This document shows, piece by piece, positions 39,432 through 60,109 of a stretch of 64,000 nt of DNA. The notes below the pieces were generated by a model. The model ran no database searches, was not told the origin of the DNA, and saw nothing but the letters and a program-made list of their open reading frames with translations. The stretch's first letter is position 1. The number at the start of each line of letters is the position of its first letter. The translations under genes were made by a program, and so were the position numbers. Source of the stretch: Brevundimonas sp. UBA5866 (GTDB lineage: Bacteria; Pseudomonadota; Alphaproteobacteria; Caulobacterales; Caulobacteraceae); assembly GCF_002432125.1 (NCBI RefSeq), contig NZ_DJFS01000018.1, positions 8,137-72,136 of the forward strand, written 5' to 3'.

Positions 39432-40604
39432 ATGAGAGAAGCCGTCATCGTTTCCACAGCCCGCACGCCCATTGGCCGTGCCTATCGCGGGGCTTTCAAC
39501 GACACACCGTCGCCGACACTGGCGGGCCATGCCCTGCGTGCGGCAGCCGACAGGGCCGGGCTTGAAGGCGGCGAGATCGAGGATGTGCTTCTGGGCTGTG
39601 CCCTGCCGCAGGGCTACCAGCACACGATTGCCCGCAATGCGGTGCTTGCGGCGGGCCTGCCTGTTTCGGTCGCGGGCATGACGCTGGACCGGCAGTGCGC
39701 CTCGGGCCTGATGGCCGTGGCCACGGCGGCCAAGCAGATCATCACCGACCGCATGCAGATTACGGTCGGTGGCGGTGTGGAATCCATTTCCACCGTCCAG
39801 ACGGTCGAGATGCGCGTCCAAAGCGATCCGACGGTGTTGGAAAAAGCTCCCGATGCCTATATCGCCATGCTCAACACCGCCGAGATCGTTGGCAAACGCT
39901 ATGGGATCAGCCGCGAGGAATGCGACGCCTATGGCCTGATTTCACAGCAGCGCACGACCCAGGCCTATGAAGCCGGTGCCTATGCCGACGAATTGGCACC
40001 CATGCCGTCGCGCATGAAGGTGACGGACAAGGCCACGGGCGAGGTGTCCTACAAGGACGTGACCCTGACACGCGACGAAGGTTTCCGTCCCGACACCACA
40101 CTGGAGGGACTGCAAGCCCTGCGTGAGGTCATTCCGGGCGGGATCGTCACGGCGGGCAATGCCAGCCAGTTGTCAGACGGGGCTTCGGCCTGTGTGCTGA
40201 TGGAGGCGGGCGAGGCTGAGCGCCGTGGACTGCAGCCGATGGGGCGCTATGTCGGCATGGCGGTGGCCGGTGTGGAACCGGATGAAATGGGCATCGGTCC
40301 GGTCAAGGCCGTCCCGCCGCTGCTTGAGCGTTTCGGGCTGAAGGTCGAGGACATCGACCTTTGGGAACTGAACGAGGCCTTTGCCGTGCAGGTCCTTTAC
40401 TGCCAGAAGGTGCTGGGCATTCCGCTGGAGAAGATGAACGTCAACGGCGGTGCGATCTCGATCGGCCATCCCTATGGCATGTCGGGTTCGCGGATGGTCG
40501 GCCATATCCTGATCGAGGGCCGCCGCCGCAAGGCCCGTTATGGTGTGGTGACCATGTGCGTGGGCGGCGGCATGGGGGCCGCCGGACTGTTCGAAATCTA
40601 TTGA
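39432..40604 (+). CDS. acetyl-CoA C-acyltransferase (thiolase)
   Basis: [22 protein letters not shown]. Active-site Cys [10 protein letters not shown]-terminal [15 protein letters not shown] and MCVGGGMG. Confidence 0.95.
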
Positions 40605-40617: not shown

Positions 40618-40643
40618 GCGGGTGCGGATAAGGCCGCACCCGC
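40618..40643. terminator. perfect 10-bp-stem hairpin between convergent thiolase and SbcC-like genes
   Basis: GCGGGTGCGG-ataagg-CCGCACCCGC. There is no clear U-tract on either side, so terminator function is only plausible. Confidence 0.45.
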
Positions 40644-40657: not shown

Positions 40658-43279
40658 TTAGGGTTCCCACGACTGAAGCTTGAGAACATGGCCCCCGAGC
40701 TTCTGGAAGGCCCGCTGACGGCAGGTCAGGACGATGACCTGCTGGTCCTTGGCCTGACGGTGCAGGGCGTTGAACATGTGTTCGATGCGGTCGTCATCAG
40801 AGTAGACCAGAGCATCGTCCAGAACGACGGGAATGGGGCGGTTGTCGCGGGCCAGCAGGCGGGCGAAGGCCAGCCGTGTCAGGATCGACAACTGCTCGCG
40901 CATGCCGCCGCTCAGTTTGTCCACGGCCTCGTCCTGACCTTTGCGTATCAGGCTTTCGGGCAGCAGGGCCTGGTCGTCGAAGGTGATGGCCACATCCTCG
41001 AACAGCATGGACAGCAAGGGGCGCAGTTCTTCCATCACCGGCGCAAGGTACAGGTCCTTGGCTTCCTGACGGGCGCTTTCCAGGGCGCTTAACAGGCGTT
41101 GGAGGATGGCGATCTCGTGCTCGAACGCGCCCACACCCTGTTCGGCGGCTTCCAGTTCTTCGCGCCGCTCGTTGATTTTTTCCTCGACGGCTTCGTCGGA
41201 ACGGGCCTTGATCAGGGCGTTATGGCTGGCGATCTCGACCTGAAGCTGGTTGCTCTCTTTTTCGGCGGCCGATTTGACCGATTGGGCGCGCTGAAGATTG
41301 GCCTGGGCGAACTCGAAGTCGGTCGCCGAGCTTTCTGCCTCGCGCACCTTGGCTTCTGCCTCTTCCACGCGGGCCTGCTCGGCGAGCAGGGCGGCTTTCA
41401 ATTGCGCCAGCCTTGCCGGATGCTCGTCGGGCGCACCCAGTTGCTCGCCCATCTGCCTGAACCGGCTGTCCAGCGGGCTGTGGCGGGTGGAGATTTCGAC
41501 ATAGCGGTTGGTGGCGCTGTCGAGTGCCAGACTGCTGGTCTTCTGGGCTTCGATACAGGTGTGGCGGTGTGTTTTGGCGGCTTGGAACGCCGCCTCCAGG
41601 ACGTCGCATTCAGGCAGGTCTTCGGGCACGTCCCTCGCAGCCAGTTCGCAAGCGGACACCTCCTGTTGCAGGGCTTCGATACCGTCAGGAGCCAGCGCGC
41701 CCAGACGCGCCGTCTCGGTTTCGATGCGGCCCATGATGTCTCTGGCCTGATCCTGTCGCAGACGCGCCGCGGCCAGACTTTCGACGCCCAGCGCAGTCAG
41801 CAGCTGGCGATGCTTTTCTTCGCAGGCGGCCAGTTCGGCGGCATCGTCCACACTGTTCGAGCGCAGTTGGATGGTGCCGATGCCCGGAGCGGTCAGGGCG
41901 GTGCGACCGGAATAGTGGCGCTCCTGCGAGGGTTCGAGCGCGACGCCGTCCATCAGGATCCGGTGGCTGGCTCCGCTGTCGTATTCGACGATGACGGACG
42001 GCCGGGCGTTGTCGCGGATGGTCCGCAGTTTGAGCAGGGTGTTCTCCAACTCCTGCAACTCGGCCAGCGCGCTGTCGGGAACGGTCTTGGCCGACAGGTC
42101 GGCCCTCAGCGATTCAATCGCAGTGCGTGAGGACAGGGCTTTGTCGAGACTGTCCTTCAGGGTCTGCAGACGTTTGGCGGCCTCGGTCGCGCGTTGGAAA
42201 AGGTCGTGTTTCTCCAGAGCGGACCGCGCGTCGGCTTCGGCCTTTTCGGCGGCGCTTGCGGCTTCGCGGGCGCGATGCTCAGCGTCCTTGGCCTCTTCAC
42301 GATGGCGGGTCGCTTCGACGAGAAGCGGTTCCAGCGTCTTCAGCTCTTGCGTGACGGTGGCATAGGCTTCCAGTGCGCTCTGGAACTGATCCAGTTCGCG
42401 CTGTGCCGCGTCACGATTGGTCAGTGCCAGCTTCAGCTCGGCCTTCAGGCGTTCCAGAACCTCATGCCGCGATTTGGCGGCTTCGAATTGGCTTTGGGCC
42501 GTGGCCAGTGCCGCGTCACGCGCTGCAACCTCTTCAGGGCTGTTGAGCTCCTTGAGGCGACGGTTCTGGCTGGCTCTTTGATCGAGAGCGACGCGCAGGG
42601 CGTCCACATCCGCGCCCAGCTTTTCGATTTCGGACCGAAGCCGGTCACGCTTATCGAGTGCGGCATGATACCGGCCGCCGACCTTCGGGCGTCCCGTGGC
42701 CGTGACCAGTTCTTTCAGAGCGGCCTCGGTCGCGGACTGGATTTCGGCCATACGCCGCCCGCCGGTGATGGCTTCGACCTCGCCCTGTACGGAATGGAGC
42801 AGGTCGGTGCGGGCCGTGGTTTCGTTCTCGTCCTCGGCCTTCGTGCGGCGTTCCCAGCCGGTGACGCCCTGTTTGACCCAAAGTAGCGCGGCAGGTCCGC
42901 TGGTGGCGTCACCCAGCAGTTCACCGATGAAGCCCTCGGCCTCGTCCGCCTGTGCGATCAGGCGGCCGCTGTCCAGATCGACCACCTGGGCCACCGCCTT
43001 GCCGAGGAACTGTTTGGTGATGCGATAGCGCCCCTTGGCCGTGGTGATGTCGGCTTCCACACGGGGGGAGCCGCCGCTGTAGGGACGAAGCGACATCACA
43101 TCCGCCGAACGGCTGGAATGTTTGGCGAAGAACAGGGCGGTCAGGGCCTCGAAACTGGTCGATTTGCCGAACTCGTTCGGTGCGGCCAGGACGTTTACGC
43201 CATCGCTCAGTCCTTCGATGGAGACGCCATGTCCGTCAAAGCGTTTGACGTTGAAAAGGCGCAGGGCATCGAGCCTCAT
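40658..43279 (-). CDS. Rad50/SbcC-like coiled-coil ABC ATPase without a zinc hook (873 aa), third gene of the operon
   Basis: N-terminal Walker A APNEFGKST (aa 33-41) and about 600 aa of Ala/Glu/Leu/Arg-rich coiled coil. C-terminal signature KLSGGMREQL and Walker B/D-loop PVVLDDALVYSDD. Its ATG overlaps the upstream stop (ATGA). Confidence 0.8.
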   Translation of the reverse strand: MRLDALRLFNVKRFDGHGVSIEGLSDGVNVLAAPNEFGKSTSFEALTALFFAKHSSRSADVMSLRPYSGGSPRVEADITTAKGRYRITKQFLGKAVAQVVDLDSGRLIAQADEAEGFIGELLGDATSGPAALLWVKQGVTGWERRTKAEDENETTARTDLLHSVQGEVEAITGGRRMAEIQSATEAALKELVTATGRPKVGGRYHAALDKRDRLRSEIEKLGADVDALRVALDQRASQNRRLKELNSPEEVAARDAALATAQSQFEAAKSRHEVLERLKAELKLALTNRDAAQRELDQFQSALEAYATVTQELKTLEPLLVEATRHREEAKDAEHRAREAASAAEKAEADARSALEKHDLFQRATEAAKRLQTLKDSLDKALSSRTAIESLRADLSAKTVPDSALAELQELENTLLKLRTIRDNARPSVIVEYDSGASHRILMDGVALEPSQERHYSGRTALTAPGIGTIQLRSNSVDDAAELAACEEKHRQLLTALGVESLAAARLRQDQARDIMGRIETETARLGALAPDGIEALQQEVSACELAARDVPEDLPECDVLEAAFQAAKTHRHTCIEAQKTSSLALDSATNRYVEISTRHSPLDSRFRQMGEQLGAPDEHPARLAQLKAALLAEQARVEEAEAKVREAESSATDFEFAQANLQRAQSVKSAAEKESNQLQVEIASHNALIKARSDEAVEEKINERREELEAAEQGVGAFEHEIAILQRLLSALESARQEAKDLYLAPVMEELRPLLSMLFEDVAITFDDQALLPESLIRKGQDEAVDKLSGGMREQLSILTRLAFARLLARDNRPIPVVLDDALVYSDDDRIEHMFNALHRQAKDQQVIVLTCRQRAFQKLGGHVLKLQSWEP

Positions 43280-44400
43280 TTCGATGTCTCCTGAAGGTGG
43301 CGGTACAGCCGCGACAAAGCCGATCCCGCGACAGAGCGGTCCTGTGCGGACAGGGCCGCATTGTTCACATCGGCCATCAGGGCGTTGGCCGCCTCGCGCA
43401 GGGCGCCGGACAGCTCGATACTGTCCAGATCGGATGGATCATATTCGATCTCAAGGTCGTCCAGTGACAGGTCGAACCATGCGAAGTCGTGACGCGTCTG
43501 CTCGGCGCGGTCCAGCAGGGCCGAGTGTTCGGCCACGCGTGTGTGGCCGCTGGCCCTGACCTTCCACAGGCTGTGACGTCGCTGTCCCATCTCCGGCAGG
43601 ATGGCGTCCAATGCCGCCGGGGCCGAACTGGCCGTCATCAGGTGTAGGTCATGGCTGCGCCAGTCAAACGTGCCGGTGGGCACTGCCTTCATTTCCGGCT
43701 TTGCCCCGCGCGCGGCGATGGAGACGACAAAGGCCTCGCCCGGGCGATTGTGCTTGAAGCGATCCGGCTCCGGCGTGCCGCTGTAGTAGGTGCGATCGTC
43801 CACCTGCATGGCACCGTGCCAGTCGCCCAGCGCCAGATAATCCAGCCCCGACTGGCGCGCGCGATCCGGCGCGATGACGTCGTGGGTCGAGGCGTCTTCG
43901 GTAAAGTTCTGGATGGCCCCGTGGGCTAGTCCGATCCGCAGGGCGGTATCGTCCAGACCGCTTTCGCCCATCCATTCGGTCAGGTCACGGCCCGGACGCC
44001 TGAAGGTACAGGGCGCGGGCAGCACATAGGCGTTCGGCCCCACCGAAATCGGTGACGGCTCGACCGCCAGAATGACGTTGGGGGGCGCATCACCCGCCAT
44101 GCGCTGCCAAAGCTCGCTGGCCTGAAGCGAGTCATGGTTGCCCGGCAGTATGATCCAGTGGATGTCCTCGTGCTGGGCCATCTCCGTCATCGCCTGACGT
44201 CGGACATCGGGCGCGGGTGTCTCGCTGTCGAAGGTGTCGCCGGCCAGCAGGACCGTCGGGGCGTTCTGCTCACGTGCATGGCGCGCCAGCTTGCCCAGCA
44301 CCGCATGGCGTGCCTCGCGCAGACGGCCCGGCAGATCGCCTTCGAAATTGCCGAACCGCTTGCCGAGGTGAAGGTCGCTTGAGTGGATAAACCTGAACAT
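43276..44400 (-). CDS. Mre11/SbcD-like calcineurin-fold metallophosphoesterase (374 aa), second gene of the operon
   Basis: Phosphoesterase motifs in order: SSDLHLG, LLAGDTFD, LPGNHD, GLAHG, LGDWHG. Its start is 2 nt after the helicase-nuclease stop. Confidence 0.8.
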   Translation of the reverse strand: MFRFIHSSDLHLGKRFGNFEGDLPGRLREARHAVLGKLARHAREQNAPTVLLAGDTFDSETPAPDVRRQAMTEMAQHEDIHWIILPGNHDSLQASELWQRMAGDAPPNVILAVEPSPISVGPNAYVLPAPCTFRRPGRDLTEWMGESGLDDTALRIGLAHGAIQNFTEDASTHDVIAPDRARQSGLDYLALGDWHGAMQVDDRTYYSGTPEPDRFKHNRPGEAFVVSIAARGAKPEMKAVPTGTFDWRSHDLHLMTASSAPAALDAILPEMGQRRHSLWKVRASGHTRVAEHSALLDRAEQTRHDFAWFDLSLDDLEIEYDPSDLDSIELSGALREAANALMADVNNAALSAQDRSVAGSALSRLYRHLQETSK

Positions 44401-44402
44401 GG

Positions 44403-47400
44403 CTACTCTGGCAGTTGGGCGGCGAGGTGCGCGCGCGCACGCTCTATAGCCTCATCCAGCCGCGCCCGCGATGGCGTCGCCAGACGCTCCAGACCCAGCA
44501 GGCGGGACAGTTCGCGTGTCGGGTCCGGCTCTTCCAGCAGATCGCGGTGCGTGACAACGACGTGCGCCAGTTCGGCCAATGGAATATCCGCAACCGAACG
44601 CCGCGCGTCGTCTCCGACAGGCTGACGGTAGGGTACGAGATCGGACACGCTTCCAGCGGCCCACACGAATTCCCCGCTGGATTCAAATGTGAGGTCGCAG
44701 GTCTTCAGATGCATCTCGATACGCTCTCTGATCCTTGAACCAGTTTTCAGCCAGCCGTGAGCCCGAGCGATCCTCTGGCACAGAATGTCTTTCCGCACGG
44801 GGGCCTCGGTCGCCATGACCGCATCGATCATCGCTTGAAGCGTCGGGCGATAGACAAAGTCGTAAAAGCTGTCCGGATCGGCACTGAAGGAAGAAAGGTC
44901 GGTCAACCGATAGACCGGCGCATCCGTGGGCGGGGCAGCCGACGCGGCGCTGTGGGGTTCGTCCACGGGGCTGTCCGTAACCTTTTCGGGCTCTGGTTCA
45001 AAACCTGAGGGCACATCGGGCAGCAAAAGCGGATCATCGCGGATTTCCACGATGTCCTCGACCTCGTGACCCATGTCCCAGTGCGCCGTGGTCCGGGTGT
45101 CTTCGGCGCGGCGGTCACGGCATGCGGCCAGCAGGTCCTGCAGGTCTTTGTCCAGGCGCTCGGCGCAGGCGGCGTGGTCATGCCACCAGTCGGTGGACCA
45201 GACGCGCAGTATGTTCCAGCCCAGCCCCCTGAGAACCTGCTCGCGCACCTTGTCGCGGTCACGGGCGGTGGCTGCACTGTGATAGGTCGCGCCGTCGCAT
45301 TCCACACCCGCCAGATAGGCACCGGGCAGGTCGGGATGGCGCACGCCGAGGTCGATACGGAAGCCGGACATGCCGACTTGAGGCACGACGATCCAGCCGC
45401 GCTTTTCCAGTTCGGCGGCGACGGCTTCCTCGAACGGTGAATCAAACCCGCCCATAGAGTCCGTGGCTTGGGCCGCAAGGGCGATGCCGCCGCGTTCGGC
45501 ATAGTCGAGGAAGGTCTTCAGATGATGGACGGCCAGCGCCTTGGTGCGCGTGATGTCGATCTGGTCGGCGGTGAAGCCGGAGAAGACGATCAACTCCTGT
45601 CGTGCACGAGTCACGGCCACGTTCAGGCGCTTCTCGCCGCCCTCTTTGTTGAGCGCGCCGAAGTCCATTGTCAGCCTTCCGGCGGCATCCTTCCAGAAGG
45701 TGATCGAAAACAGGATCACATCGCGCTCATCACCCTGAACATTTTCAAGGTTCTTGACGATGGTGGGTTCGACCCGCTCCTCCGCGAAGAACCATTCCAG
45801 TTCCGGCTCATTACGCCGCGCCACGTCCAGCAGGTCCATGATCAGGCTCTGCTGCTGGGCGTTGAAGGTGATGACCCCCAGTGTCGGACGGCTGCTTTCC
45901 GGCAGGGCCAGCCATGAGCGCATGCGGAGGACGGCTTCGTCGGCGATGGCCTGGGCTTCAATGCGGTTGGTGCGCGACTTGCCTCGGTCGTAGATGCCGT
46001 TCGGAACCTTGCGCAGCTGTACCGCGCGGTCATCGACCTGTGGCGACGGGAAGGTGACCAGCCTGTTCTGGTAATAGTGATGGTTGGAGAAGGCGATCAG
46101 TGACTCGCTGCGGCTGCGATAGTGCCAGCGCAGGTCACGTACGGGGATGCCCGAGGCCTTGGCCTCGTCGAGGATGCTCTCCAGATCTTTTTCATGATCT
46201 TCGACGTCCTCCTCTTCTTCATTTCGGCCGAAGAAGCTGGTCGGCGGCAGCTGTTTGGGATCACCGACAATGATGGTTTGACGGGCGCGGGCGATGGCCC
46301 CGACGGCATCCCAGGTCGTGATCTGTGACGCCTCGTCAAAGATCACCACGTCGAACAGTGTCTGGTTCGGCGGGAAATACTGGGCGATCGACAGGGGTGA
46401 CATCAACATACAGGGGGCGAGTTTGCCGAAATAGTTCGGCATTCGCCCAATCATGTCGCGGATGGACTGGCTGGGGCGTTGCAGTTCCATCTGGTGGCGC
46501 AGCAGCCCCAGTTCGGAGTTGCGCGGCACGCTTTGGACCGGCGGAAGGTCGCGGTTCAGGGCGGCGATAACGCGCTGGGCCGCGTGTTTGCGCACCATGT
46601 CGTCGATCTCGCGGAACTCCGAGATCATGTTTTCATGCTGGAAGCGCCTGAAGCTATTGAGCTCCGGCACACTGTCCATCACCTGGGGCAGCCACCATCG
46701 GACATAGGCCAGGGTAAAGCGGGCACGGCTTTCTTCTGGCGGGATGTCACCGCGCTCCACCGCTTCGACCACGCTGGACAGGCCGTGCGCCACGGCCTGA
46801 CGGCGGGTGTGGCACCAGCTGGACCAGTTTCGCAGCAGACGCTTCTGCTGGTCCAGTTCATCCAACTGTCGGGACAGATCGGCCAGCCCGTCGGGGGTAT
46901 CTCCCCACGGGGGTGTACGCTCGGAAAGGGCGGCGAAGTCTTTCAGCGCGATGTTGAAGGCCTCTGTCGCCGCGATCAGGCGCTTGGCGACGGGGACGAC
47001 GTTGTCGCCCATGTGTTCAGACCCCAACCACTGGCTGATACGGGTGATCAGGGCGGATATGTCGGCAGTCTCGCGCCCCGGCAGACGCAGGGCCGCGCGC
47101 AGGCTGGCGGCGAGCTGGAGCCGATCGGCAACCTCCTGGATCGGCGTGTCGAGGCCGCGCACAGGCAGGGGCAGCCCGTTCAGTCCATTGGCCTCGATCA
47201 GGCCCAACTGTTCGCGCATTACCCGCAGCCGTCCCAGATCGGTGTCCGGATTGACGGTTCCGCTCTCGGCATAGGATTGCAGCAGGCGCGTGATCTTGCG
47301 GCGTCCCAGTGCGGACATCGGCCAGAAGGAGGCCGAGGCTTCGCGCCATTCGCGGTCCAGCCGGTCCAGCTCTATGGTAGCCAGCGACGAGGGCGTAAAG

Positions 47401-50348
47401 CGTGCCCCCATCTGCGCTTCGTTATCGCGATAGATGCCGATCGCGGCTTCGAGATTTTTCAGGTCTTCGGCACAGCGCCCATAGGCCTGATGGAAGGCGA
47501 TGGACACATCATGTCCTTCGGCCTGGACAAGGGCATGCGCCAAAGCCCTGCATGCCGTGAGTTCGGTCGATACCGGATGGTCTGCCGCCGACAGGCCCAG
47601 CGACTGGCGCAAGGCGTCCAGCGCATTTTCCAATACATCCGCCGCCGTACGCAGACCGCGACCGGACGCCAGCAGGGCGTCCTGCCTGCCGCTGGTCCAT
47701 TCGGCGATGTCGACCAGATGCAGCGACGGGTGCCGCTCGATCGAGGCGTAAACCTTGCCGAGCTGATCGGCGATGTCCTCGAGTTTGGCCAGTGTGACCG
47801 CGTCGACATCCTGCGGCTTGGGCCAGTCCAGAACGGGGGTGTAGACGTCCCTGTCACGCAGTTTCAGGCCAAGCGCGCGATAGGCGGTCCAGCCATTCGG
47901 ATAGGGGTGGTGCAGGGCCGTGACATAGGCGTTCAGCTGATCACGGCGAACCTTGAGGCGCTCGTTGATCGTGATCCATTCTTGGGCGTCAGTTTTGACG
48001 CTGTTCTCCCATGCCGCCTTGAGCTGGGACAGGAACTGCCTGCGGTCGGCCTTGTTCGAGTGCAGTTCGATACAGAAATCGCCGAGACCATGCTCTCGCA
48101 GACGGCGATAGACCACGTCGAGAGCGGCGGTCTTTTCAGCGACAAACAGTACCGATTTCCCGACCGCCAGACAGTTGGCGATCATATTGGCGATGGTCTG
48201 GCTCTTGCCGGTGCCGGGCGGGCCGACGATGACGAAGTCGCGCCCTTGTGCCGCGGCGAGGCTGGCCGCGGTCTGCGATGAATCCGACGGCAGAAGGCAG
48301 ACGATATCGGCCGGATCATAGGTCTGGTCGAGCGTGTTCTCGTCAATAAAGGTGCCAGACCCGTCGCCGCCATTTTCAAAGGGTTTGTCGGGCGTATCGA
48401 TCAGGTGTTTGACGACGCGGTTCTGACGAAGCGCATCGGTCCGTTCGACCAGATCCTTCCACATCAGGAATTTGGCGAACGAGAAGGTCGAGAGCGCGGC
48501 TTCGTCCACGACCTCCAGACCCGGCGCATCGCGGACGGCCAGACGCGCCGCGGCCAGAAGCTGCGGTACATCCACACCGTTGTCGTCCATCGGCAGGTCG
48601 GCGAGATGGTGCAGCTTCAGTTCGAACTCCCGCTCCAGAAACTGCAGCAGGGTCGAGTTGAAGCGCGGCTCGTCCTCGTGGAAACGGATACGGAACGGCG
48701 CATTGGCGCTGCGGCGCTCCAGCTTGACCGGCACGAGCAGAAGCGGGGCGCGATAGGTTTTCTGGTCTTCGGCCTTTCGCTTCCAGCGCAGGAAGCCGAC
48801 GGCCATGAACAGGGTGTTTGCGCCCCCTTCGGCCAAGTCGTTCTTGACCTGTCTGTGCAGGTCGATCAGGCGCGCGTTGAGCTGGGGCCCGTCCAGCGGA
48901 GAAGCCAGTTCGTCGCGCTGCAACGCCTCGGCGGCAAAGTGGCGCTGAATGTCGCGCCCGTGAACCTCGCGGTAGAGTTCGGCATCACGCTCTCCCAGAG
49001 GATTCTGTTCCGGCAGGGAGATGATCTGGACCGCCGCTCCCCCCGCCAGACGGTCTTCGAGATAGGCCACATCCGGGCAGATGAAGGGGATTGTCTTCTT
49101 CGTTTCCGGAAAGTTCAGCAGGCGGTTGCGCAGCGTCAGGTCCAGAAGCTTCTTCTGCCAACGGTCGATACGGCCCGAGGCGGTGGTGGGCTTTTGCTCG
49201 ACCTGGTCGCCGGCAAGATGATCAAAGGTCGGCGCTGCGGGCAACGGAAGGTCGCTGACGGGAACGGCTGCGTCATCGGCTTCCGTCATGGCGCGAGCCA
49301 TCGGCTGATGCGAGGCGAGGGGGGTAATCCCGCCACTGCGCGCGCGCCGCACATCGATGGACGCCACGAAGGCACCGGCCTCTTCCTCGCTCATGCGATT
49401 GTCCAGAGCGCGCTGCGCCTGTTCAAACGTCATGGCGGGGCGGTGGGTCACGCCCGTTGTCTCGAACACAATCATCTCGCGCGAGGCGAGCGCCTTGCGA
49501 ACCTCCATCTGGTCCGTTTCGATCGAGTTGGCGAAGGTTTTGGAGGTCAGCCACACACCCACGGCGGCATGGCCGTGGAACATCAACACAACGGGATGAA
49601 GGCCGGTGGCCTCCAGCGCGGAGGCGAACAGAAGCGTGGTATCGAGACAGGTGCCCAGCTTTTCCTGTTCGATCGTCAGGGGGCGGCGGACCTTCTGGCC
49701 GCGATGCTCGAAGCTCGCAGGGGGCTCGGCATAGAAAATGCCCATGCCGGTCACAGCAGAATAGACCGCAGCGGTCAGCATATAGGCGCGTTTGGGATCG
49801 TTGGTCTGATAGCCGTCAAGGCCGCTGGGCAGGCCGTGGGCCGCCAGCCGCTCTGCCGCCTTTCTCAGCACCCCCGAGATGGCCGGGTCATTGGGCATGA
49901 CAAAGGCGGGCAGCAGTTGCGCCATGTCATTCACACCGCCCCATTCATCGCGCGCCAGCAGGCGCACGGGGAAGGTCTGTTCCTGCAGAACCTCGGAGCC
50001 GCATGTCAGCCGCAGGGAAATTTCACCGCGCTCGGCCTCATTCAGTCCGGCCAGATAGTCGGCGTCCAGCACGATGCGACGGTCGGAAATCTGGATGCGG
50101 TCGAGGGGGAGGAGGCGGTCGATCTGCCAGACTTTCGGCCGCAGAAATGCCGGTGACGACACCAGCTCCAGCCGACAGTTCTCGTAGGTCGCCTCTCCGG
50201 GGTTCTGGATTTCAACCGACCGGAGAACGGGGACAGCGTTCTGATACGAAGCGTAGGTGAAGCTGCCAGCGATGTCGGCTGTGAAACCGGGCGTGCGAAC
50301 CTCGTGCAGGTCCTTTTCGGGCGCGCTGATTTCCTTGTCGATTTCCAC
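44403..50348 (-). CDS. 1981-aa multidomain protein: transglutaminase-like N-domain, DUF4011-like region, split Upf1-like SF1 helicase, Vsr/DUF559-like endonuclease, DUF3320-like tail (Hhe-like); first gene of the operon
   Basis: All motifs were read from the track translation and spot-checked on the DNA. TGase-like core: KLGTC(234)LDTTLLFASALEATGLHPVVLMFHGH(260)AAVGVWL...IVFE(296)TTG. DUF4011-like: RIDRWQKKLLDLTLRNRLLNF (aa ~392). Helicase: Walker A GPPGTGKS (709-716), Walker B VIFDEASQ (1335-1342), GDPKQLPPT, and motif VI RLNVAVTRAR (~1574-1583). Nuclease: FRID(1666)LGV...GVE(1683)CD(1685)GATYH. GTG start at 50348. Confidence 0.85.
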   Translation of the reverse strand: MEIDKEISAPEKDLHEVRTPGFTADIAGSFTYASYQNAVPVLRSVEIQNPGEATYENCRLELVSSPAFLRPKVWQIDRLLPLDRIQISDRRIVLDADYLAGLNEAERGEISLRLTCGSEVLQEQTFPVRLLARDEWGGVNDMAQLLPAFVMPNDPAISGVLRKAAERLAAHGLPSGLDGYQTNDPKRAYMLTAAVYSAVTGMGIFYAEPPASFEHRGQKVRRPLTIEQEKLGTCLDTTLLFASALEATGLHPVVLMFHGHAAVGVWLTSKTFANSIETDQMEVRKALASREMIVFETTGVTHRPAMTFEQAQRALDNRMSEEEAGAFVASIDVRRARSGGITPLASHQPMARAMTEADDAAVPVSDLPLPAAPTFDHLAGDQVEQKPTTASGRIDRWQKKLLDLTLRNRLLNFPETKKTIPFICPDVAYLEDRLAGGAAVQIISLPEQNPLGERDAELYREVHGRDIQRHFAAEALQRDELASPLDGPQLNARLIDLHRQVKNDLAEGGANTLFMAVGFLRWKRKAEDQKTYRAPLLLVPVKLERRSANAPFRIRFHEDEPRFNSTLLQFLEREFELKLHHLADLPMDDNGVDVPQLLAAARLAVRDAPGLEVVDEAALSTFSFAKFLMWKDLVERTDALRQNRVVKHLIDTPDKPFENGGDGSGTFIDENTLDQTYDPADIVCLLPSDSSQTAASLAAAQGRDFVIVGPPGTGKSQTIANMIANCLAVGKSVLFVAEKTAALDVVYRRLREHGLGDFCIELHSNKADRRQFLSQLKAAWENSVKTDAQEWITINERLKVRRDQLNAYVTALHHPYPNGWTAYRALGLKLRDRDVYTPVLDWPKPQDVDAVTLAKLEDIADQLGKVYASIERHPSLHLVDIAEWTSGRQDALLASGRGLRTAADVLENALDALRQSLGLSAADHPVSTELTACRALAHALVQAEGHDVSIAFHQAYGRCAEDLKNLEAAIGIYRDNEAQMGARFTPSSLATIELDRLDREWREASASFWPMSALGRRKITRLLQSYAESGTVNPDTDLGRLRVMREQLGLIEANGLNGLPLPVRGLDTPIQEVADRLQLAASLRAALRLPGRETADISALITRISQWLGSEHMGDNVVPVAKRLIAATEAFNIALKDFAALSERTPPWGDTPDGLADLSRQLDELDQQKRLLRNWSSWCHTRRQAVAHGLSSVVEAVERGDIPPEESRARFTLAYVRWWLPQVMDSVPELNSFRRFQHENMISEFREIDDMVRKHAAQRVIAALNRDLPPVQSVPRNSELGLLRHQMELQRPSQSIRDMIGRMPNYFGKLAPCMLMSPLSIAQYFPPNQTLFDVVIFDEASQITTWDAVGAIARARQTIIVGDPKQLPPTSFFGRNEEEEDVEDHEKDLESILDEAKASGIPVRDLRWHYRSRSESLIAFSNHHYYQNRLVTFPSPQVDDRAVQLRKVPNGIYDRGKSRTNRIEAQAIADEAVLRMRSWLALPESSRPTLGVITFNAQQQSLIMDLLDVARRNEPELEWFFAEERVEPTIVKNLENVQGDERDVILFSITFWKDAAGRLTMDFGALNKEGGEKRLNVAVTRARQELIVFSGFTADQIDITRTKALAVHHLKTFLDYAERGGIALAAQATDSMGGFDSPFEEAVAAELEKRGWIVVPQVGMSGFRIDLGVRHPDLPGAYLAGVECDGATYHSAATARDRDKVREQVLRGLGWNILRVWSTDWWHDHAACAERLDKDLQDLLAACRDRRAEDTRTTAHWDMGHEVEDIVEIRDDPLLLPDVPSGFEPEPEKVTDSPVDEPHSAASAAPPTDAPVYRLTDLSSFSADPDSFYDFVYRPTLQAMIDAVMATEAPVRKDILCQRIARAHGWLKTGSRIRERIEMHLKTCDLTFESSGEFVWAAGSVSDLVPYRQPVGDDARRSVADIPLAELAHVVVTHRDLLEEPDPTRELSRLLGLERLATPSRARLDEAIERARAHLAAQLPE
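45174..45443 (-). other. restriction-endonuclease-fold (Vsr/DUF559/MTES_1575-like) domain of the 1981-aa protein
   Basis: SPFEEAVAAELEKRGWIVVPQVGMSGFRIDLGVRHPDLPGAYLAGVECDGATYHSAATARDRDKVREQVLRGLGWNILRVWSTDWW. The D...ExD...(Y/H) pattern is typical of this fold. Confidence 0.65.
49329..50348 (-). other. N-terminal transglutaminase-like (papain-fold) domain region of the 1981-aa protein
   Basis: The Cys234 codon (TGT) was verified at 49647-49649 and the His260 codon (CAT) at 49569-49571. An acidic residue (Glu296) sits in the IVFETTG context where TGase-like proteins carry Asp. Confidence 0.6.
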
Positions 50349-50387
50349 CCTATTTCCCCCTAGTCCCCAGTGTCGGAATCCATGAAC

Positions 50388-50407
50388 CCTTTGTCAGATA
50401 TCAAAGG
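50388..50407. promoter_or_regulatory. inverted repeat CCTTTG-N8-CAAAGG upstream of the helicase-nuclease operon (candidate operator/promoter element)
   Basis: Read directly. It is centred about 50 bp upstream of the GTG at 50348, inside the only AT-rich patch of the 133-bp intergenic region. Confidence 0.3.
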
Positions 50408-50481
50408 TATTAAGGCTCTGTAAAATCAACCATAGATTGGGGGTTGGCTTTTTGAGGATGTGGAGGGGGCTGCGCTCCTGA

Positions 50482-52072
50482 CTAGAAAATCTTGCGTATT
50501 TCGAAGGTAACCGTTCGACCGAGCGGATCGAAATATGCGGATTGATAGTTGAGGGGCGTCCTGCCCGCTCCATCGCGCAATTCGATGCGGCTGTTCAGCA
50601 GATTGTCGATTTTCAGCGTGGCTCTTGCGCCCTTCAGCAAATCGGCCGCGCCGGTCCCCCGGAACTGTTCTGCAAGGTTCGCGAAGAGGCTGAGGTTGAG
50701 GCTTGTAAGATCGGAAAAGTCCAAAGCGTCGTCGGGACTGCCGAAACCGTTCGTCTCGCTTCCACTTTGCCATACGGCGCTCACACGCGCGCCCAGGCCG
50801 CGCCTGAAGGCACCGGCTTGAAGTTCCAGTTTGTGGCGACGGCTGCCGCCCCTGAAACTGAGGCCTGACCCGTCGAGCAGGTCCAGTGTGGTGCCACCGT
50901 CCTGAAGGCGGAGTTCATCCTTTAATCGCCATGTGTGGTAGAAGCTGATGAACAGACGGCTGCTCAACACTTCCATGCGTCGGGCCGCGGGGCTTCCCGG
51001 CAGGACCTCAACGACTACGACACCGGGCGGGAGCTTGCGCCTCATCTCCGCCTCGCTGGCGTAAACCCGACTCCCGTGGCTTTGCACGCCGGGCGGCAAA
51101 GGCGGTTGTGACCCAAGCATGCGCGTGAAGTTGAGCCCCCAACGCAGTTCCTACTGATCCGACCTCGAAAAATTCACTGGCCGACTGTCAATCGCCAGAA
51201 GGCGGCCATCGCTGTCGCGCGTGAAGCGGTCTGGAAACGCTGCCTCGATTTCGGGCGTAGCCGTCGGGAAGGGGGCGATAGGATTGTCGATCCGCGTCAC
51301 CACATAATCGACGCTGGCGGTGAAATCGGCCCTTGCGAACGGTTTGGCGTCCAGACCCAGGCTGAACACACGGCGGTTATCGGGCGAAAGAGCCGCATTG
51401 CCTCCGGACAGGCGGGTCACATCGACGACCTCGCCACGCGCGAAATCGAATACACGCAGGTTGGGCGTCAACTGAGGCGGAGCGCCCAGCTGCTCCAGCG
51501 TGGGGCCCCCTCTTCGTGGGTCGCCGATGCGATCAGATTGATCGTCGCAAGCGGCGACCAGTTGAGGCCATATCCATAGGTTTGCAGCGTCCCGAAGTCA
51601 GAAAGTTTCTCCAGATTGAAGTTCGCATTGACCGAAAGCGCAGCAAGGCGGCTTTCTTGCCCCTGGCCGATACCGAATACGGGCAGGGTGACAGATCCCT
51701 GCACGACGCCGGTTTCGCGGGACATCGTGTTGCGGCTCGCAAGGTCGGGACGGTTGGAGCTGTTTCTGGATTCTTGGGCTTCAAATCCGGCACGCATGGT
51801 GGCCGAGAGCGGGCCTGCGGGCAGTTGAAGCATGGGTCCGCTCAGAAGCAGATCGCTGTTGGCGCGGCTGTTGACCGCGCGTGACGTCTCGCGGAACGCC
51901 TGACGTCCTGCGATGTCCGACAGGGTCTCGGTATCATTGCGGCTATAGTTTCCGGTGAGCGTCCAACTCCATTCCCCGACCCGGCCGCCTTGCGTCGTTC
52001 CCATCTGGAGGATGCGCGTTTCGCTGTCCCGCACCAGGGCCGTGGTGGCTTCCGGCCCTAAAAAGGGATGTC
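50482..52072 (-). pseudogene. decayed TonB-dependent receptor (C-terminal ~530 codons only; one frameshift, one in-frame stop, 5' truncation)
   Basis: Three consecutive minus-strand ORFs (51468..52034, 51151..51471, 50482..51120) read as one beta-barrel ending TVTFEIRKIF. The in-frame TAG is at 51151-51153. A +1/-1 shift lies near the G4C5 run at 51502-51510; restoring the frame gives HEEGAPTLEQLGAPPQLTPNLRVFDF. No signal peptide or plug is present, and the reading frame hits TGA at repeat copy A. Confidence 0.75.
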
Positions 52073-52074
52073 GG

Positions 52075-52192
52075 GACCACTTAAGACCTGCTCACATAGA
52101 GCCCGCCATCGTTGGGCTTTGAAAATATGACCAGATAAGGCGACCACTTAAGAGCTGCTCAAATTGGATCGAAACCACTTAAGACCTGCTCA
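52075..52192 (+). repeat. three direct copies of a 20-bp motif (G/A)ACCACTTAAGA(C/G)CTGCTCA
   Basis: Copy A is at 52075-52094, copy B at 52142-52161 (one mismatch) and copy C at 52173-52192. Spacers are 47 and 11 bp. Each copy ends in CA-3' on the plus strand. Confidence 0.9.
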
Positions 52193-54646: not shown

Positions 54647-54665
54647 CGGGACCTCCGCAGCAGCT

Positions 54666-54690
54666 AACGATCCCGACGGCATTGCGCTCC
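54666..54690 (-). promoter_or_regulatory. EcfG/general-stress-type promoter candidate GGAGC-N16-CGTT upstream of ligD
   Basis: On the minus strand, GGAGC lies at 54690-54686, followed by a 16-nt spacer and CGTT at 54669-54666, about 20 nt upstream of the ATG at 54646. This is one mismatch to the alphaproteobacterial GGAAC-N16/17-CGTT consensus. Confidence 0.45.
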
Positions 54691-57910: not shown

Positions 57911-58729
57911 ATGGGACTTAGCAAAGCCAACCATAAGGAGCGGGATTCCTATTGGCGCGATCTCGGGCGTGCCTTTGGCGGTGCGTTGTTGTTCTCGCTG
58001 CCATTGTTGATGACGATGGAGATGTGGCGACTGGGCATGACTTTGGAGCCTTGGCGTCAGCTACTGTTCCTGCTGGCCAGTTTGCCAGTGCTTTACGGTC
58101 TGGCCCATTATGCCGGTTTCACGCCCAGTCGGGGTAGTTGGGATAATCTGGTCGAGGTGGCCGCTGCCCTATGTGTCGCGGCAGTTACGGGTGCGGTTCT
58201 ATTGGCGCTAACGGGCGCTTGGGAGTTGGGAAACGTTCGCGTCGCAATGGGGCAGCTGACCTTGCAGCTTGTGCCCGCTGCCATAGGAGCCCTGCTCGCA
58301 CGCAAACAGCTGGCGGCCGACAGCAAACAGGACGGTGTGCGCAAAGGTGATTTTCTTGGCGAACTGTTCTTGATGATGGCCGGTGCGCTTTTTCTGGCTC
58401 TGAGCCTCGCTCCGACAGAGGAAATGCAGCTCATCGCTTACCGGATCGGCCCCGAGGCGACATTGGTGGTGATGGGGTTGTCGTTACTCCTGCTCCACAT
58501 CTTCGTGTTTGAAGTGGGCTTTGCCGGTCAGGAAGAACGGGAGACCCCATTGGGCGCGTTATTGCATTTTACCATCCCCGGCTATGCCATTTGCCTGTTG
58601 GCCAGCATGGGTATTCTGACGCTTCTGGGCATGAATGATGCGCATGGCACGGGGGCAATCATGGCCAATACGGTTGTGCTGGCATTTCCTGCATCGTTGG
58701 GCGCGGCCGCAGCGAGGCTTTTGGTATGA
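57911..58729 (+). CDS. integral membrane protein (TIGR02587-like by memory)
   Basis: Product begins MGLSKANHKERDSYWRDLGRAFGGALLFSLPLLMTMEMWRLG, followed by about 6 hydrophobic helices. The gene starts 14 nt after the SDR stop. Confidence 0.6.
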   Translation: MGLSKANHKERDSYWRDLGRAFGGALLFSLPLLMTMEMWRLGMTLEPWRQLLFLLASLPVLYGLAHYAGFTPSRGSWDNLVEVAAALCVAAVTGAVLLALTGAWELGNVRVAMGQLTLQLVPAAIGALLARKQLAADSKQDGVRKGDFLGELFLMMAGALFLALSLAPTEEMQLIAYRIGPEATLVVMGLSLLLLHIFVFEVGFAGQEERETPLGALLHFTIPGYAICLLASMGILTLLGMNDAHGTGAIMANTVVLAFPASLGAAAARLLV

Positions 58730-59103: not shown

Positions 59104-59114
59104 ACATCAGTGGA

Positions 59115-59481: not shown

Positions 59482-59507
59482 TTTGCGCGTCCCTTCTGTG
59501 CCTAAGG

Positions 59508-59798: not shown

Positions 59799-59841
59799 CT
59801 CGAGTGCAGATTAAAGCCCCGCGATACTACCAATATGGTGT

Positions 59842-60088: not shown

Positions 60089-60109
60089 TCCTTCTAAAAG
60101 GAGATTGCA

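What the first reader, a model, noticed from the sequence alone, without database searches (positions are those of the whole stretch)
40658..50348. Tightly coupled three-gene operon: giant Hhe-like helicase-nuclease plus Mre11/SbcD-like plus Rad50/SbcC-like proteins (candidate defence or DNA-end-processing system)
Three minus-strand genes are packed with almost no spacing, so co-translation as one module is very likely. The helicase TAG is 2 nt from the SbcD-like ATG, and the SbcD-like stop overlaps the SbcC-like start (ATGA).

Gene 1 (1981 aa) combines a papain-fold transglutaminase-like domain, a DUF4011-like region, an Upf1-like SF1 helicase, a Vsr/DUF559-like endonuclease and a DUF3320-like tail. 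From memory, the DUF4011-helicase-Vsr core matches the single-gene Hhe antiphage system of Gao et al. 2020. I do not recall Hhe being described with an N-terminal transglutaminase-like domain or with an obligately linked Mre11/Rad50-type pair.

Functionally the trio mirrors the archaeal herA-nurA-mre11-rad50 end-resection operon (helicase, nuclease, Mre11, Rad50). Two hypotheses compete: (a) an extended Hhe-type defence system that senses or degrades foreign DNA ends, or (b) a dedicated double-strand-break resection machine.

The locus sits at the edge of an accessory region containing a decayed receptor gene, a repeat array, an NHEJ island and a GC drop.
Basis: partly seen in the sequence, partly recalled or inferred. 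Interest (0 to 1): 0.85.

Follow-up and report, generated by a model that had tools for sequence, protein, structure and literature searches.

The report
ProA defence gene plus Mre11–Rad50 pair
A giant helicase-nuclease gene from an already named anti-phage family (ProA) is joined in one movable three-gene operon to its own unusual Mre11/Rad50-like DNA-end-processing pair, an apparently undescribed but non-obligatory extension of a known kind of bacterial defence gene.

Summary
Three minus-strand ORFs of 1981, 374 and 873 aa lie at 40658-50348, with a 2-nt gap and then an ATGA overlap.

Gene 1 is not an orphan Hhe relative. It passes the curated NCBIfam equivalog "anti-phage protein ProA" (2178 bits, cutoff 1500) and matches PADLOC candidate PDC-S37. 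It fails the Hhe cutoff. Its transglutaminase-like N-terminus is a family feature noted in 2013.

Genes 2 and 3 are a divergent SbcD/Mre11-like nuclease and a Rad50/SMC-like ATPase. The ATPase has no zinc hook and no H-loop histidine.

Among 72 assessable ProA loci, 43 carry the same collinear, tightly coupled trio. Nothing else nearby is conserved. A Brevundimonas MAG shares 93.5% DNA identity over exactly the three genes, with unrelated flanks.

The link is not obligatory:
- ProA is solo in Klebsiella, Thioclava and Burkholderia.
- The pair occurs alone.
- Deletion remnants of either partner exist.

Related loci lie beside Cas9, PDC-S06-like ATPases, recombinases and relaxases. They never lie beside Ku/LigD.

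Best reading: a mobile ProA defence cassette with an accessory Mre11/Rad50-like module. It is a new variant of a known kind, of moderate interest. I could not find the ProA source paper.

The parts
44403..50348 (-). Gene 1, ProA: a 1981-aa anti-phage-family helicase-nuclease
   Evidence: It passes NCBIfam NF058533 antiphage_ProA at 2177.7 bits against a cutoff of 1500, with residues 31-1955 matching profile positions 1-1903. PADLOC PDC-S37 scores 1209 bits and Hhe 575 bits.
49956..50288 (-). ProA residues 21-131: N-terminal beta-sandwich
   Evidence: The AlphaFold model shows strands 21-131 with pLDDT about 80-90.
49341..49913 (-). ProA residues about 146-336: transglutaminase/papain-like core with C234 and H260
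   Evidence: C234 sits at the N-terminus of helix 234-247, and H260 starts strand 260-266. The top PDB fold hits are TG2, TG3, FXIII and protein 4.2 at E about 5e-4; the roughly 115 aligned columns may be the neighbouring beta-sandwich rather than this core. C234, H260 and E296 are invariant, including in the Klebsiella and Longimicrobiales proteins. Pfam DUF553 hits are weak.
48636..49151 (-). ProA residues 400-571: DUF4011
   Evidence: Pfam PF13195, 157.7 bits.
45582..48278 (-). ProA residues 691-1589: Upf1-like SF1 helicase. Walker A is GPPGTGKS (K715). An insert of about 550 aa is variable around residues 800-1200. Motif II is DEAS (1338-1341).
   Evidence: Pfam AAA_30/AAA_19 at 691-750, AAA_11 at 1330-1371 and AAA_12 at 1392-1589.
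45144..45434 (-). ProA residues 1639-1735: Vsr-like (MTES_1575) endonuclease with invariant D1666, E1683, D1685, H1690 and K1700
   Evidence: Pfam PF18741, 120.9 bits.
44724..44873 (-). ProA residues 1826-1875: DUF3320 (predicted winged helix)
   Evidence: Pfam PF11784, 62 bits. It is described as a wHTH in PMC3710099.
43276..44400 (-). Gene 2: a 374-aa SbcD/Mre11-like metallophosphoesterase
   Evidence: Pfam Metallophos. The closest solved relative is E. coli SbcD, at E 2e-7 for the single sequence and 8e-11 for the profile. Conserved motifs are D9-x-H11, G54-D55, G87-N-H-D90, H160 and G192-D-W-H195, the last in place of GHxH.
40658..43279 (-). Gene 3: an 873-aa Rad50/SMC-like ABC ATPase. It has long coiled-coil arms, a beta-rich apex (about 428-473) instead of a zinc hook, and C853-R854-Q855 in place of the H-loop His.
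   Evidence: Weak SMC_N, AAA_27 and SbcC_Walker_B hits and weak Rad50 PDB hits. Conserved features are Walker A G38-K39, Q137, S790-G-G and D821-D822, with no CxxC. Fold hits are Smc5/6, MukB, Rad50, JetC and LmuB.
40618..40643 (.). Perfect 10-bp GC stem with a 6-nt loop, lying between the convergent stops of gene 3 (40658) and the thiolase gene (40604). It is a terminator-like operon end without a U-tract.
   Evidence: Unique in the window. The 66-nt context folds at -27.7 kcal/mol, z = -4.2.
50349..50481 (-). A 133-nt intergenic region upstream of ProA, the presumed promoter and RBS region. It lies outside the segment shared with the Brevundimonas copy.
   Evidence: Sequence. No sigma-70 consensus match was found. 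Homology to L001 starts only at 50264.

Best explanation
This is a horizontally mobile three-gene defence cassette.

Gene 1 is ProA, a member of a named anti-phage family of giant single-chain proteins. It comprises a beta-sandwich plus transglutaminase-like Cys/His domain, DUF4011, an Upf1-like SF1 helicase, a Vsr-like endonuclease and a DUF3320 winged helix.

In one alphaproteobacterial ProA clade, ProA is translationally coupled to a dedicated, divergent Mre11/SbcD-like nuclease (gene 2). Gene 2 is in turn coupled to a hook-less Rad50/SMC-like ATPase (gene 3).

Proposed mechanism (inferred): ProA recognises invading DNA, translocates on it and cuts it with the Vsr-like nuclease. The Mre11/Rad50-like complex binds DNA ends or blocked or hairpin ends, either those of incoming linear DNA or those made by ProA. 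It processes them in an ATP-dependent way and so reinforces or broadens restriction. The pair is an accessory module rather than an essential subunit.

Shown here: family membership, domain and motif integrity, operon coupling, co-inheritance, mobility and context.

Inferred: every biochemical step, the order of action, and the anti-phage phenotype of this particular copy.
For: Family membership:
- ProA equivalog passed over the full profile.
- PDC-S37 HMM match at 1209 bits.
- A Klebsiella plasmid homologue also passes ProA.
- Catalytic residues are invariant in ProA, gene 2 and gene 3.

Coupling and co-inheritance:
- 43 of 72 assessable ProA loci carry the collinear trio, with -4 to +14 nt spacing and an NTGA overlap in 40 of 42.
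- Genes 2 and 3 are the only neighbours conserved across lineages.
- Pairwise identities of the three proteins co-vary at r = 0.94-0.97.
- dN/dS is 0.12-0.24 for all three genes against the Brevundimonas copy.
- That copy shares 93.5% nt identity over 40701-50264 only, in an unrelated genomic context.

Older or independent associations:
- A divergent ProA (46% identity) has a divergent pair (37% and 28%) in convergent orientation in L076.
- A non-orthologous Metallophos + AAA_27 pair lies divergently upstream of ProA in six Mesorhizobium loci that lack genes 2 and 3.
- Solo pairs nest inside the trio clade. One still carries ProA residues 1-133 fused just upstream.

Defence and mobile-element context elsewhere:
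- Cas9 and Cas1 in 4 loci.
- PDC-S06/AAA_13 ATPases in 13 loci.
- Serine recombinases and an integrase in B. diminuta.
- MobA, ParA and Fic in Rhizobium SL42.
- 480 plasmid records.
Against: - The link is not obligatory. ProA is solo in Klebsiella, where it is IS-flanked, and in Thioclava and Burkholderia. It is also solo in 16 of 72 assessable close loci.
- At least four independent deletions removed genes 2 and 3 while ProA stayed intact and under purifying selection. dN/dS is 0.10 between two Rhizobium copies that have different deletion junctions.
- The pair persists alone in housekeeping-like contexts.
- No ProA segment is specific to pair-associated proteins.
- This window's own flanks carry no recognisable defence genes.
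- Genes 2 and 3 have no PADLOC or NCBIfam defence model.
- No experiment or paper on ProA could be retrieved. The anti-phage label rests on the curated HMM name.
Confidence: 0.55

Rival explanations
1. Two independent modules happen to share an operon. ProA is a self-sufficient single-gene defence protein. Genes 2 and 3 are an alphaproteobacterial SbcCD-type repair complex that processes hairpins, blocked ends and crosslinks, with no role in ProA's action. The linkage reflects co-transfer and co-expression only.
For: - PADLOC treats the ProA-type protein as a single-gene candidate, PDC-S37.
- ProA is solo in many lineages.
- The pair is alone beside aroA-cmk-rpsA in a Mesorhizobium chromosome, and on conserved R. 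leguminosarum chromid positions, in 69 Rhizobium plasmid records against 26 with ProA.
- Either partner survives loss of the other.
- There is no pair-specific ProA segment.
Against: - Tight translational coupling is kept across 43 species-level representatives.
- Solo pairs are nested within the ProA-linked clade, and at least one is visibly derived by ProA deletion.
- The association recurs with a different SbcCD-like family and in a different orientation.
- The cassette transfers as exactly three genes.
Confidence: 0.25
2. The whole trio is a DNA double-strand-break end-resection and repair machine, not an immune system. It would be analogous to the addAB-sbcDC operon of Bacillus subtilis (my recollection, not checked here) or to the archaeal herA-mre11-rad50-nurA operon.
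For: - The logic of helicase plus nuclease plus Mre11 plus Rad50 fits.
- In this window the operon lies next to LigD, Ku and topoisomerase IB.
- Sources annotate genes 2 and 3 as a DNA repair exonuclease and SbcCD ATPase.
Against: - No Ku or LigD occurs in any of 80 related loci.
- Distribution is patchy: 363 hits among 185,579 species representatives.
- Flanks are variable, and many copies sit on plasmids or mobile elements or beside CRISPR.
- Gene 1 meets a curated anti-phage equivalog.
- ProA has a variable central region (33-51% identity within the trio clade, against 70-87% in most other regions), as is usual in defence proteins.
Confidence: 0.08
3. The pair is a self-protection or damage-control module. 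It repairs or limits collateral host DNA damage caused by ProA, acting like an immunity or antitoxin partner rather than attacking the invader.
For: - Co-expression is tight and stoichiometric.
- Mre11/Rad50-type complexes are primarily repair factors (established knowledge).
- ProA carries a potentially self-harming nuclease.
Against: - ProA remains intact and under purifying selection after several independent deletions of the pair.
- ProA is solo on many plasmids, so it is not evidently toxic without the pair. An unlinked copy of the pair exists in some of those species, however.
Confidence: 0.1

Closest known systems
ProA anti-phage protein family (NCBIfam NF058533.1) = PADLOC candidate PDC-S37
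   Same: Gene 1 matches the full-length profile above the curated cutoff. It has the same length and domain order as the Klebsiella plasmid homologue that also passes.
   Different: PDC-S37 is, by PADLOC's naming as I recall it, a single-gene candidate, and the Klebsiella ProA is solo. Here, and in 43 related loci, ProA is co-operonic with an Mre11/Rad50-like pair for which neither library has a model. I could not find the source publication for ProA.
Hhe (Gao et al. 2020, from memory; NCBIfam NF042953, PADLOC PDLC02194)
   Same: Both share the DUF4011, Upf1-like SF1 helicase and Vsr-like nuclease core. There are strong partial HMM matches of 799 and 575 bits.
   Different: Gene 1 falls below the Hhe equivalog cutoff of 2000, and the best-scoring stretch covers only residues 1122-1755. 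ProA is a sister family with a transglutaminase-like N-terminal domain.
Giant HEPN/transglutaminase/SF1-helicase/Vsr/wHTH proteins of the MTES_1575 type (Anantharaman et al. 2013, PMC3710099)
   Same: Both have a transglutaminase-like peptidase, an SF-I helicase, an MTES_1575 Vsr nuclease and a DUF3320 wHTH in one polypeptide. That work predicted a modification-independent defence protein.
   Different: No HEPN domain was detected here. That work did not report an Mre11/Rad50-like partner in the passages I read.
Bacterial SbcCD / Mre11-Rad50
   Same: Gene 2 keeps the Mre11 phosphoesterase motifs, and its nearest solved relative is E. coli SbcD. Gene 3 has Walker A and B, a Q-loop, a signature motif and long antiparallel coiled coils. 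The nuclease-then-ATPase gene order with overlapping genes is the same.
   Different: Gene 3 has no CxxC zinc hook but a beta-rich apex instead. Its H-loop His is replaced by an invariant C-R-Q. Gene 2 has GDWH instead of GHxH. Both score below the curated SbcD and Rad50 cutoffs. The profile of gene 3 finds no PDB sequence at E <= 1e-3.
addAB-sbcDC operon of Bacillus subtilis and archaeal herA-mre11-rad50-nurA (my knowledge, not tested here)
   Same: A helicase-nuclease is encoded in one operon with an Mre11-type nuclease and a Rad50-type ATPase.
   Different: Those are vertically inherited repair loci. Their helicases are AddAB (SF1A with a RecB nuclease) or HerA (an FtsK-like hexamer). Here the helicase is Upf1-like with a Vsr nuclease, and the locus is patchy and mobile.
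SMC/Rad50-like ATPases in defence systems: Lamassu LmuB, Wadjet JetC
   Same: The best PADLOC hit of gene 3 is LmuB (48.5 bits). The fold search finds LmuB and JetC among SMC-like matches. The shared concept is a coiled-coil ABC ATPase that senses DNA ends or topology for an associated nuclease.
   Different: No LmuA or LmuC, and no JetA, JetB or JetD, is present. The partner nuclease is Mre11-like, and the similarity is weak and generic.

Membership tests
ProA (NCBIfam NF058533.1, equivalog) | Whole-protein score above the curated cutoff, with end-to-end profile coverage | tested here: met
   2177.7 bits against a cutoff of 1500. Residues 31-1955 match profile positions 1-1903 of 1903.
ProA (NCBIfam NF058533.1, equivalog) | Domain order: transglutaminase-like N-terminus, DUF4011, SF1 helicase, MTES_1575 nuclease, DUF3320, with catalytic residues intact | tested here: met
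   Pfam domains. N-terminal fold and Cys/His (model of moderate confidence). K715, D1338/E1339, E1683 and D1685 are invariant in 22 homologues.
ProA (NCBIfam NF058533.1, equivalog) | Confers anti-phage protection | not testable with these tools
   This rests on the curated family name only. No ProA paper was found in 10 literature searches.
PADLOC PDC-S37 (single-gene defence candidate) | Match to the PDC-S37 HMM over most of its length | tested here: met
   1209.5 bits. Residues 392-1971 match model positions 8-1533 of 1550.
Hhe (NCBIfam NF042953.1) | Whole-protein score above the curated equivalog cutoff | tested here: not met
   799.4 bits against a cutoff of 2000. The best stretch covers residues 1122-1755 only.
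Hhe (NCBIfam NF042953.1) | DUF4011 + SF1 helicase + Vsr-like nuclease core | tested here: met
   Pfam PF13195, PF13086/PF13087 and PF18741.
SbcD/Mre11 nuclease | Calcineurin-like phosphoesterase motifs I-V (DxH, GD, GNHD, H, GHxH) | tested here: met
   D9/H11, G54/D55, G87-N-H-D90, H160 and G192-D-W-H195 are conserved in 42 orthologues. The first His of motif V is replaced by Asp.
SbcD/Mre11 nuclease | Score above curated SbcD/Mre11 family cutoffs | tested here: not met
   TIGR00619 sbcd scores 61.5 against 77.65. All Mre11 and SbcD equivalogs are far below their cutoffs.
SbcC/Rad50 ATPase | Walker A, Q-loop, signature motif, Walker B/D-loop | tested here: met
   G38-K39-S-T, Q137, S790-G-G and D821-D822 are invariant in 25 homologues.
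SbcC/Rad50 ATPase | Long antiparallel coiled coil between the N- and C-terminal head halves | tested here: met
   The AlphaFold model has helices 203-424 and 479-759 at pLDDT mostly 80-92. Fold hits are SMC, MukB and Rad50.
SbcC/Rad50 ATPase | CxxC zinc hook at the coiled-coil apex | tested here: not met
   The protein has no CxxC and no conserved Cys in the apex. The apex is a beta-rich segment at 428-473.
SbcC/Rad50 ATPase | H-loop histidine after the last head strand | tested here: not met
   The position holds an invariant C853-R854-Q855. The alternative Mesorhizobium pair has a canonical T-H-H there.
SbcC/Rad50 ATPase | Score above curated family cutoffs | tested here: not met
   SMC_N 30.5 against 40, and SbcC_Walker_B 22.7 against 27. 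Only AAA_27 passes, at 26.7 against 22. Rad50 equivalogs score below 32 bits. The profile against PDB gives no hit.
Lamassu | LmuB SMC-like ATPase together with an LmuA effector and LmuC | tested here: not met
   Gene 3 hits LmuB weakly (48.5 bits). Genes 1 and 2 hit no Lmu model.
Archaeal HerA-NurA-Mre11-Rad50 operon | HerA FtsK-type hexameric ATPase and NurA nuclease | tested here: not met
   Gene 1 is an Upf1-like SF1 helicase with a Vsr-like nuclease. There are no HerA or NurA hits.

The most novel reading that the evidence does not exclude
An Mre11/Rad50-type complex has been remodelled, with no zinc hook, a beta-rich apex and a C-R-Q H-loop. It has been recruited as a dedicated immune component that senses or processes the ends of invading DNA for the ProA helicase-nuclease. 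ProA plus the pair would then be an undescribed three-component defence system, and ProA-type proteins would depend on an end-processing partner supplied in cis or in trans. Supporting this, unlinked copies of the pair exist in Rhizobium species and in Ancylobacter, where ProA has no adjacent pair or only a remnant of one.
Probability: 0.3. Interest if true: 0.7.

Novelty: new variant of a known kind. Interest (0 to 1): 0.5.

Why it matters
Mre11-Rad50/SbcCD is the universal DNA-end-processing machine. SMC-like ATPases are already known to act as sensors in Lamassu and Wadjet.

A defence helicase-nuclease that repeatedly travels with its own remodelled Mre11/Rad50-like pair would link classical end resection to immunity. 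It would also give a handle on how ProA- and Hhe-type giant proteins act; I retrieved no mechanistic work on either.

The natural series of trio, ProA-only and pair-only loci, with visible deletion scars, is a ready-made genetic dissection of which parts are needed.

For annotation, gene 1 should be called ProA rather than 'DUF3320 protein'. In this clade, genes 2 and 3 should not be assumed to be housekeeping SbcCD.

Tried and rejected
- **ProA literature.** Ten full-text searches found no ProA paper, so the experimental basis of the name is unverified. Terms were ProA/ProB/ProC with anti-phage, antiphage, defence, Hhe, SbcC; PDC-S37; DUF3320; DUF4011; and Vsr + transglutaminase. Gao et al. 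2020 is not held.
- **E. coli RefSeq annotation.** I looked for a 2026 ProA annotation with named neighbours. The Klebsiella ProA DNA finds nothing in E. coli genomes with megablast or blastn.
- **Empty-site search.** I queried the flanking thiolase against metagenome contigs. The tool returned an error and the single scan was consumed.
- **Phage carriage.** Only one truncated fragment turned up in 2.9 million viral contigs, so this is not a phage-borne system.
- **Other conserved partner genes of ProA.** None exists beyond genes 2 and 3.
- **NHEJ linkage.** No LigD or Ku occurs in 80 loci. Rejected.
- **ProA segments specific to pair-associated proteins.** None found.
- **Insertion signatures flanking the cassette.** There are no inverted repeats. 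The only direct repeat, 14 bp, has one copy inside the intact thiolase gene, so it is not a target-site duplication.
- **Promoter and repeats.** There is no sigma-70 promoter match and no tandem repeat array in 38-64 kb.
- **Gene 3 profile against PDB.** No hits.

Full report
**Observation**

The window contains three minus-strand ORFs: 44403-50348 (1981 aa, GTG start), 43276-44400 (374 aa) and 40658-43279 (873 aa). An independent gene call on the source contig, JGI metagenome 3300014020, gives the same three genes.

The first is TAG-cc-ATG and the second is an ATGA overlap. A perfect 10-bp GC hairpin at 40618-40643 lies between the convergent stops of gene 3 and a thiolase gene. No sigma-70 consensus was found upstream.

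**Gene 1**

Pfam finds these domains:
- DUF4011 (residues 400-571).
- The Walker-A half of an SF1 helicase (691-750).
- AAA_11/AAA_12 (1330-1589).
- The Vsr-like MTES_1575 nuclease (1639-1735).
- DUF3320 (1826-1875).

PADLOC's best model is the candidate PDC-S37 (1209 bits, residues 392-1971), ahead of Hhe (575 bits). NCBIfam is decisive. The equivalog NF058533 'anti-phage protein ProA' scores 2177.7 bits against a cutoff of 1500 and aligns end to end (residues 31-1955 to profile positions 1-1903). Hhe scores 799 bits, below its cutoff of 2000. Gene 1 is therefore a ProA, a sister family of Hhe.

The N-terminal 390 residues have no Pfam hit above threshold. DUF553 'transglutaminase-like' is weak in 7 of 15 members. 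Three lines still support the assignment:
- A moderate AlphaFold model (pLDDT 65) shows a beta-sandwich (21-131) followed by an alpha/beta core. C234 sits at the N-terminus of a helix and H260 starts the next strand pair.
- Its best PDB matches are animal transglutaminases at E about 5e-4. The roughly 115 aligned columns may correspond to the shared beta-sandwich only.
- C234, H260 and E296 are invariant even in ProA proteins from Klebsiella and Longimicrobiales.

This domain combination was already described for MTES_1575-type giant proteins and predicted to be defensive (Anantharaman et al. 2013, PMC3710099). K715, D1338/E1339, E1683 and D1685 are invariant in 22 homologues. The central region around residues 800-1200 is the most variable part.

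**Genes 2 and 3**

Gene 2 is a Metallophos protein. Its nearest solved relatives are E. coli SbcD and Mre11 (E 2e-7 for the single sequence, 8e-11 for a profile). Motifs DxH, GD, GNHD and H are conserved in 42 orthologues. GDWH replaces GHxH. It stays below the curated SbcD cutoff and has no PADLOC hit.

Gene 3 has an invariant Walker A, Q-loop, signature motif and Walker B. Its AlphaFold model has two coiled-coil arms of about 220-280 residues. Fold hits are Smc5/6, MukB, Rad50, JetC and LmuB. It departs from canonical Rad50 in three ways:
- It has no CxxC zinc hook. The apex (428-473) is beta-rich.
- The H-loop histidine is replaced by an invariant C-R-Q.
- Curated Rad50, SbcC and SMC models are not met, and a family profile finds no PDB sequence.

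The pair is therefore Mre11/Rad50-like in architecture but not a canonical SbcCD.

**Is the trio a unit?**

A scan of one genome per species found 363 ProA relatives among 185,579 species, nearly all Alphaproteobacteria. The best 80 loci were analysed. Eight of the 80 end too close to ProA to assess. The remaining 72 break down as follows:

| Arrangement | Loci |
|---|---|
| Collinear ProA-gene 2-gene 3 trio | 43 |
| Pair in convergent orientation (L076: ProA 46%, pair 37% and 28% identity) | 1 |
| Only a decayed 5' remnant of gene 2 | 6 |
| A different Metallophos + AAA_27 pair, divergently upstream (all Mesorhizobium) | 6 |
| No pair within the flank | 16 |

Further evidence for a unit:
- In the 43 trios the ProA-gene 2 spacing is -4 to +14 nt. 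Gene 3 overlaps gene 2 by NTGA in 40 of 42.
- Clustering of all neighbours shows that genes 2 and 3 are the only ones conserved across lineages.
- Pairwise identities of the three proteins co-vary at r = 0.94-0.97.
- All three genes are under purifying selection against the closest copy, with dN/dS 0.12-0.24.
- That copy, in a Brevundimonas MAG, shares 93.5% nt identity with window 40701-50264 and nothing outside it. Its flanks encode unrelated chromosomal genes. The three genes have therefore moved as a cassette.

**Not obligatory**

ProA occurs alone:
- ProA homologues lie on 480 plasmid records.
- The Klebsiella form (243 records, 41% identity) also passes the ProA model. It is solo and IS-flanked.
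- Thioclava and Burkholderia copies are also solo.

The pair occurs alone:
- On R. leguminosarum chromids and an Agrobacterium plasmid.
- Beside aroA-cmk-rpsA in a Mesorhizobium chromosome.
- In Terrihabitans and Aquamicrobium.
- In Ancylobacter aquaticus, where the pair lies about 16 kb from ProA on the same contig.

In a gene 2 tree these solo pairs nest inside the ProA-linked clade. In Chelatococcus the 'solo' pair is preceded by a 148-aa ORF that is ProA residues 1-133 and ends 3 nt before gene 2. That is a deletion scar.

Conversely, gene 2 remnants downstream of intact ProA have different junctions in different lineages. ProA dN/dS between two such Rhizobium copies is 0.10. ProA shows no segment specific to pair-associated proteins. 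The ancestral state of this clade is therefore the trio, and either half can persist without the other in cis.

**Defence or repair?**

The LigD/Ku/topoisomerase-IB genes next to the operon in this window have no counterpart in any of the 80 related loci.

Related loci instead lie next to:
- Cas9 and Cas1 (4 loci).
- PDC-S06/AAA_13 ATPases (13 loci, three different forms).
- A UvrD-M78 peptidase fusion.
- Large serine recombinases and an integrase (B. diminuta).
- MobA, ParA and Fic (Rhizobium SL42).
- VapBC and an ATPase/S8-peptidase pair (Rhizobium Pop5).

Together with the curated anti-phage name, the PADLOC candidate status, the plasmid load and the patchy distribution, this favours defence. 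Phage carriage is negligible. The window's own flanks contain nothing recognisably defensive.

**Mechanism (inferred)**

ProA probably recognises foreign DNA, perhaps through the wHTH and the variable insert. It translocates as an Upf1-like helicase and cuts with its Vsr-like nuclease. The conserved Cys/His domain may regulate or act as a second effector.

The Mre11/Rad50-like complex, co-translated with ProA, most plausibly binds and processes DNA ends or blocked or hairpin termini. These could be the ends of incoming linear DNA or ends made by ProA. None of this is shown.

I give 0.55 to an accessory functional module in a defence cassette, 0.25 to two independent co-travelling modules, about 0.1 to a self-protection role and under 0.1 to a pure repair machine.

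**Novelty and limits**

Gene 1 is already known: ProA, PDC-S37 and the 2013 domain description. The dedicated hook-less Mre11/Rad50-like pair is not represented in PADLOC v2 or NCBIfam r20. I found no description of it.

I could not find the ProA source paper either (ten searches). I also could not run DefenseFinder or a multimer prediction. The planned empty-site search failed with a tool error.

I therefore rate this a new variant of a known kind, interest 0.5.

Noticed in passing
window 52190-54682 (LigD) and upstream to about 58700 (Ku, topoisomerase IB, SDR, DUF2391; L081 1620-8159): A complete NHEJ cluster (four-domain LigD plus Ku) with a bacterial type IB topoisomerase lies directly upstream of the cassette. 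No related ProA locus has it, so the adjacency looks coincidental.
   Followed up: partly
window 50482-52034 (-): Three small same-strand ORFs (212, 106 and 188 aa) lie between LigD and ProA. They have no Pfam or NCBIfam hit. They are absent from the Brevundimonas copy and so are not part of the cassette.
   Followed up: partly
window 40385-40398 and 50303-50316: A 14-bp exact direct repeat, CGTGCAGGTCCTTT, has one copy inside the intact thiolase gene and one in ProA codons 11-15. By rough calculation about 6e-4 such matches are expected by chance between the two roughly 400-nt flanks. It is not a plausible target-site duplication and remains unexplained.
   Followed up: partly
L017, L018, L021-L023, L029, L036, L040, L046, L060, L062, L067, L068 and L086 (flanks of ProA): AAA_13 / PDC-S06-like (PrrC/RloC-type) ABC ATPases lie next to ProA in three unrelated forms and positions: upstream on the minus strand in Mesorhizobium, upstream on the plus strand in Brevundimonas, and immediately downstream in L036 and L046. 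This is either a defence-island hallmark or a second recurrent partner.
   Followed up: partly
L019, L034, L036, L046, L064, L072 (e.g. L064 1521-6247, minus strand): A non-orthologous SbcCD-like pair is transcribed divergently from ProA in Mesorhizobium loci that show no genes 2 and 3 downstream (L019 ends 263 bp after ProA, so its downstream side could not be checked). It comprises a 419-aa Metallophos protein with a canonical GHIH motif and a 1156-aa AAA_27/YhaN-like ATPase with a canonical T-H H-loop. All six are one genus, so this may be a single event.
   Followed up: partly
L010, L020, L038, L051: A type II-C CRISPR locus (Cas9 plus Cas1) lies within a few kb of ProA.
   Followed up: partly
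window 40701-50264 compared with L001 10028-19597: Identity to the Brevundimonas copy is mosaic, at 88-99.6% per 500 nt. Synonymous divergence is two to three times higher in ProA (dS 0.29) than in genes 2 and 3 (0.10-0.135). This suggests recombination within the cassette.
   Followed up: partly
ProA residues about 800-1200 (window about 46750-47950): The insert in the first RecA-like helicase domain is much more variable than the rest of the protein: 33-51% identity within the trio clade against 70-87% in most other regions. It may be a specificity or target-recognition region.
   Followed up: no
literature (PMC10250203): In Pseudomonas aeruginosa a large DUF4011 gene is a core gene present in every isolate. 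It forms the right flank of core defence hotspot cDHS1. DUF4011 giants can therefore also be fixed, vertically inherited genes.
   Followed up: no
window 58000-64000: GC falls from about 0.62-0.64 to 0.54-0.57 towards the right end of the window. This may be another acquired segment. I did not examine it.
   Followed up: no
L083 3915-7422 (Rhizobium sp. Pop5 plasmid): An 'ATP-binding protein' and an S8-family peptidase, plus a VapBC pair, lie just upstream of the trio. This may be another defence module.
   Followed up: no
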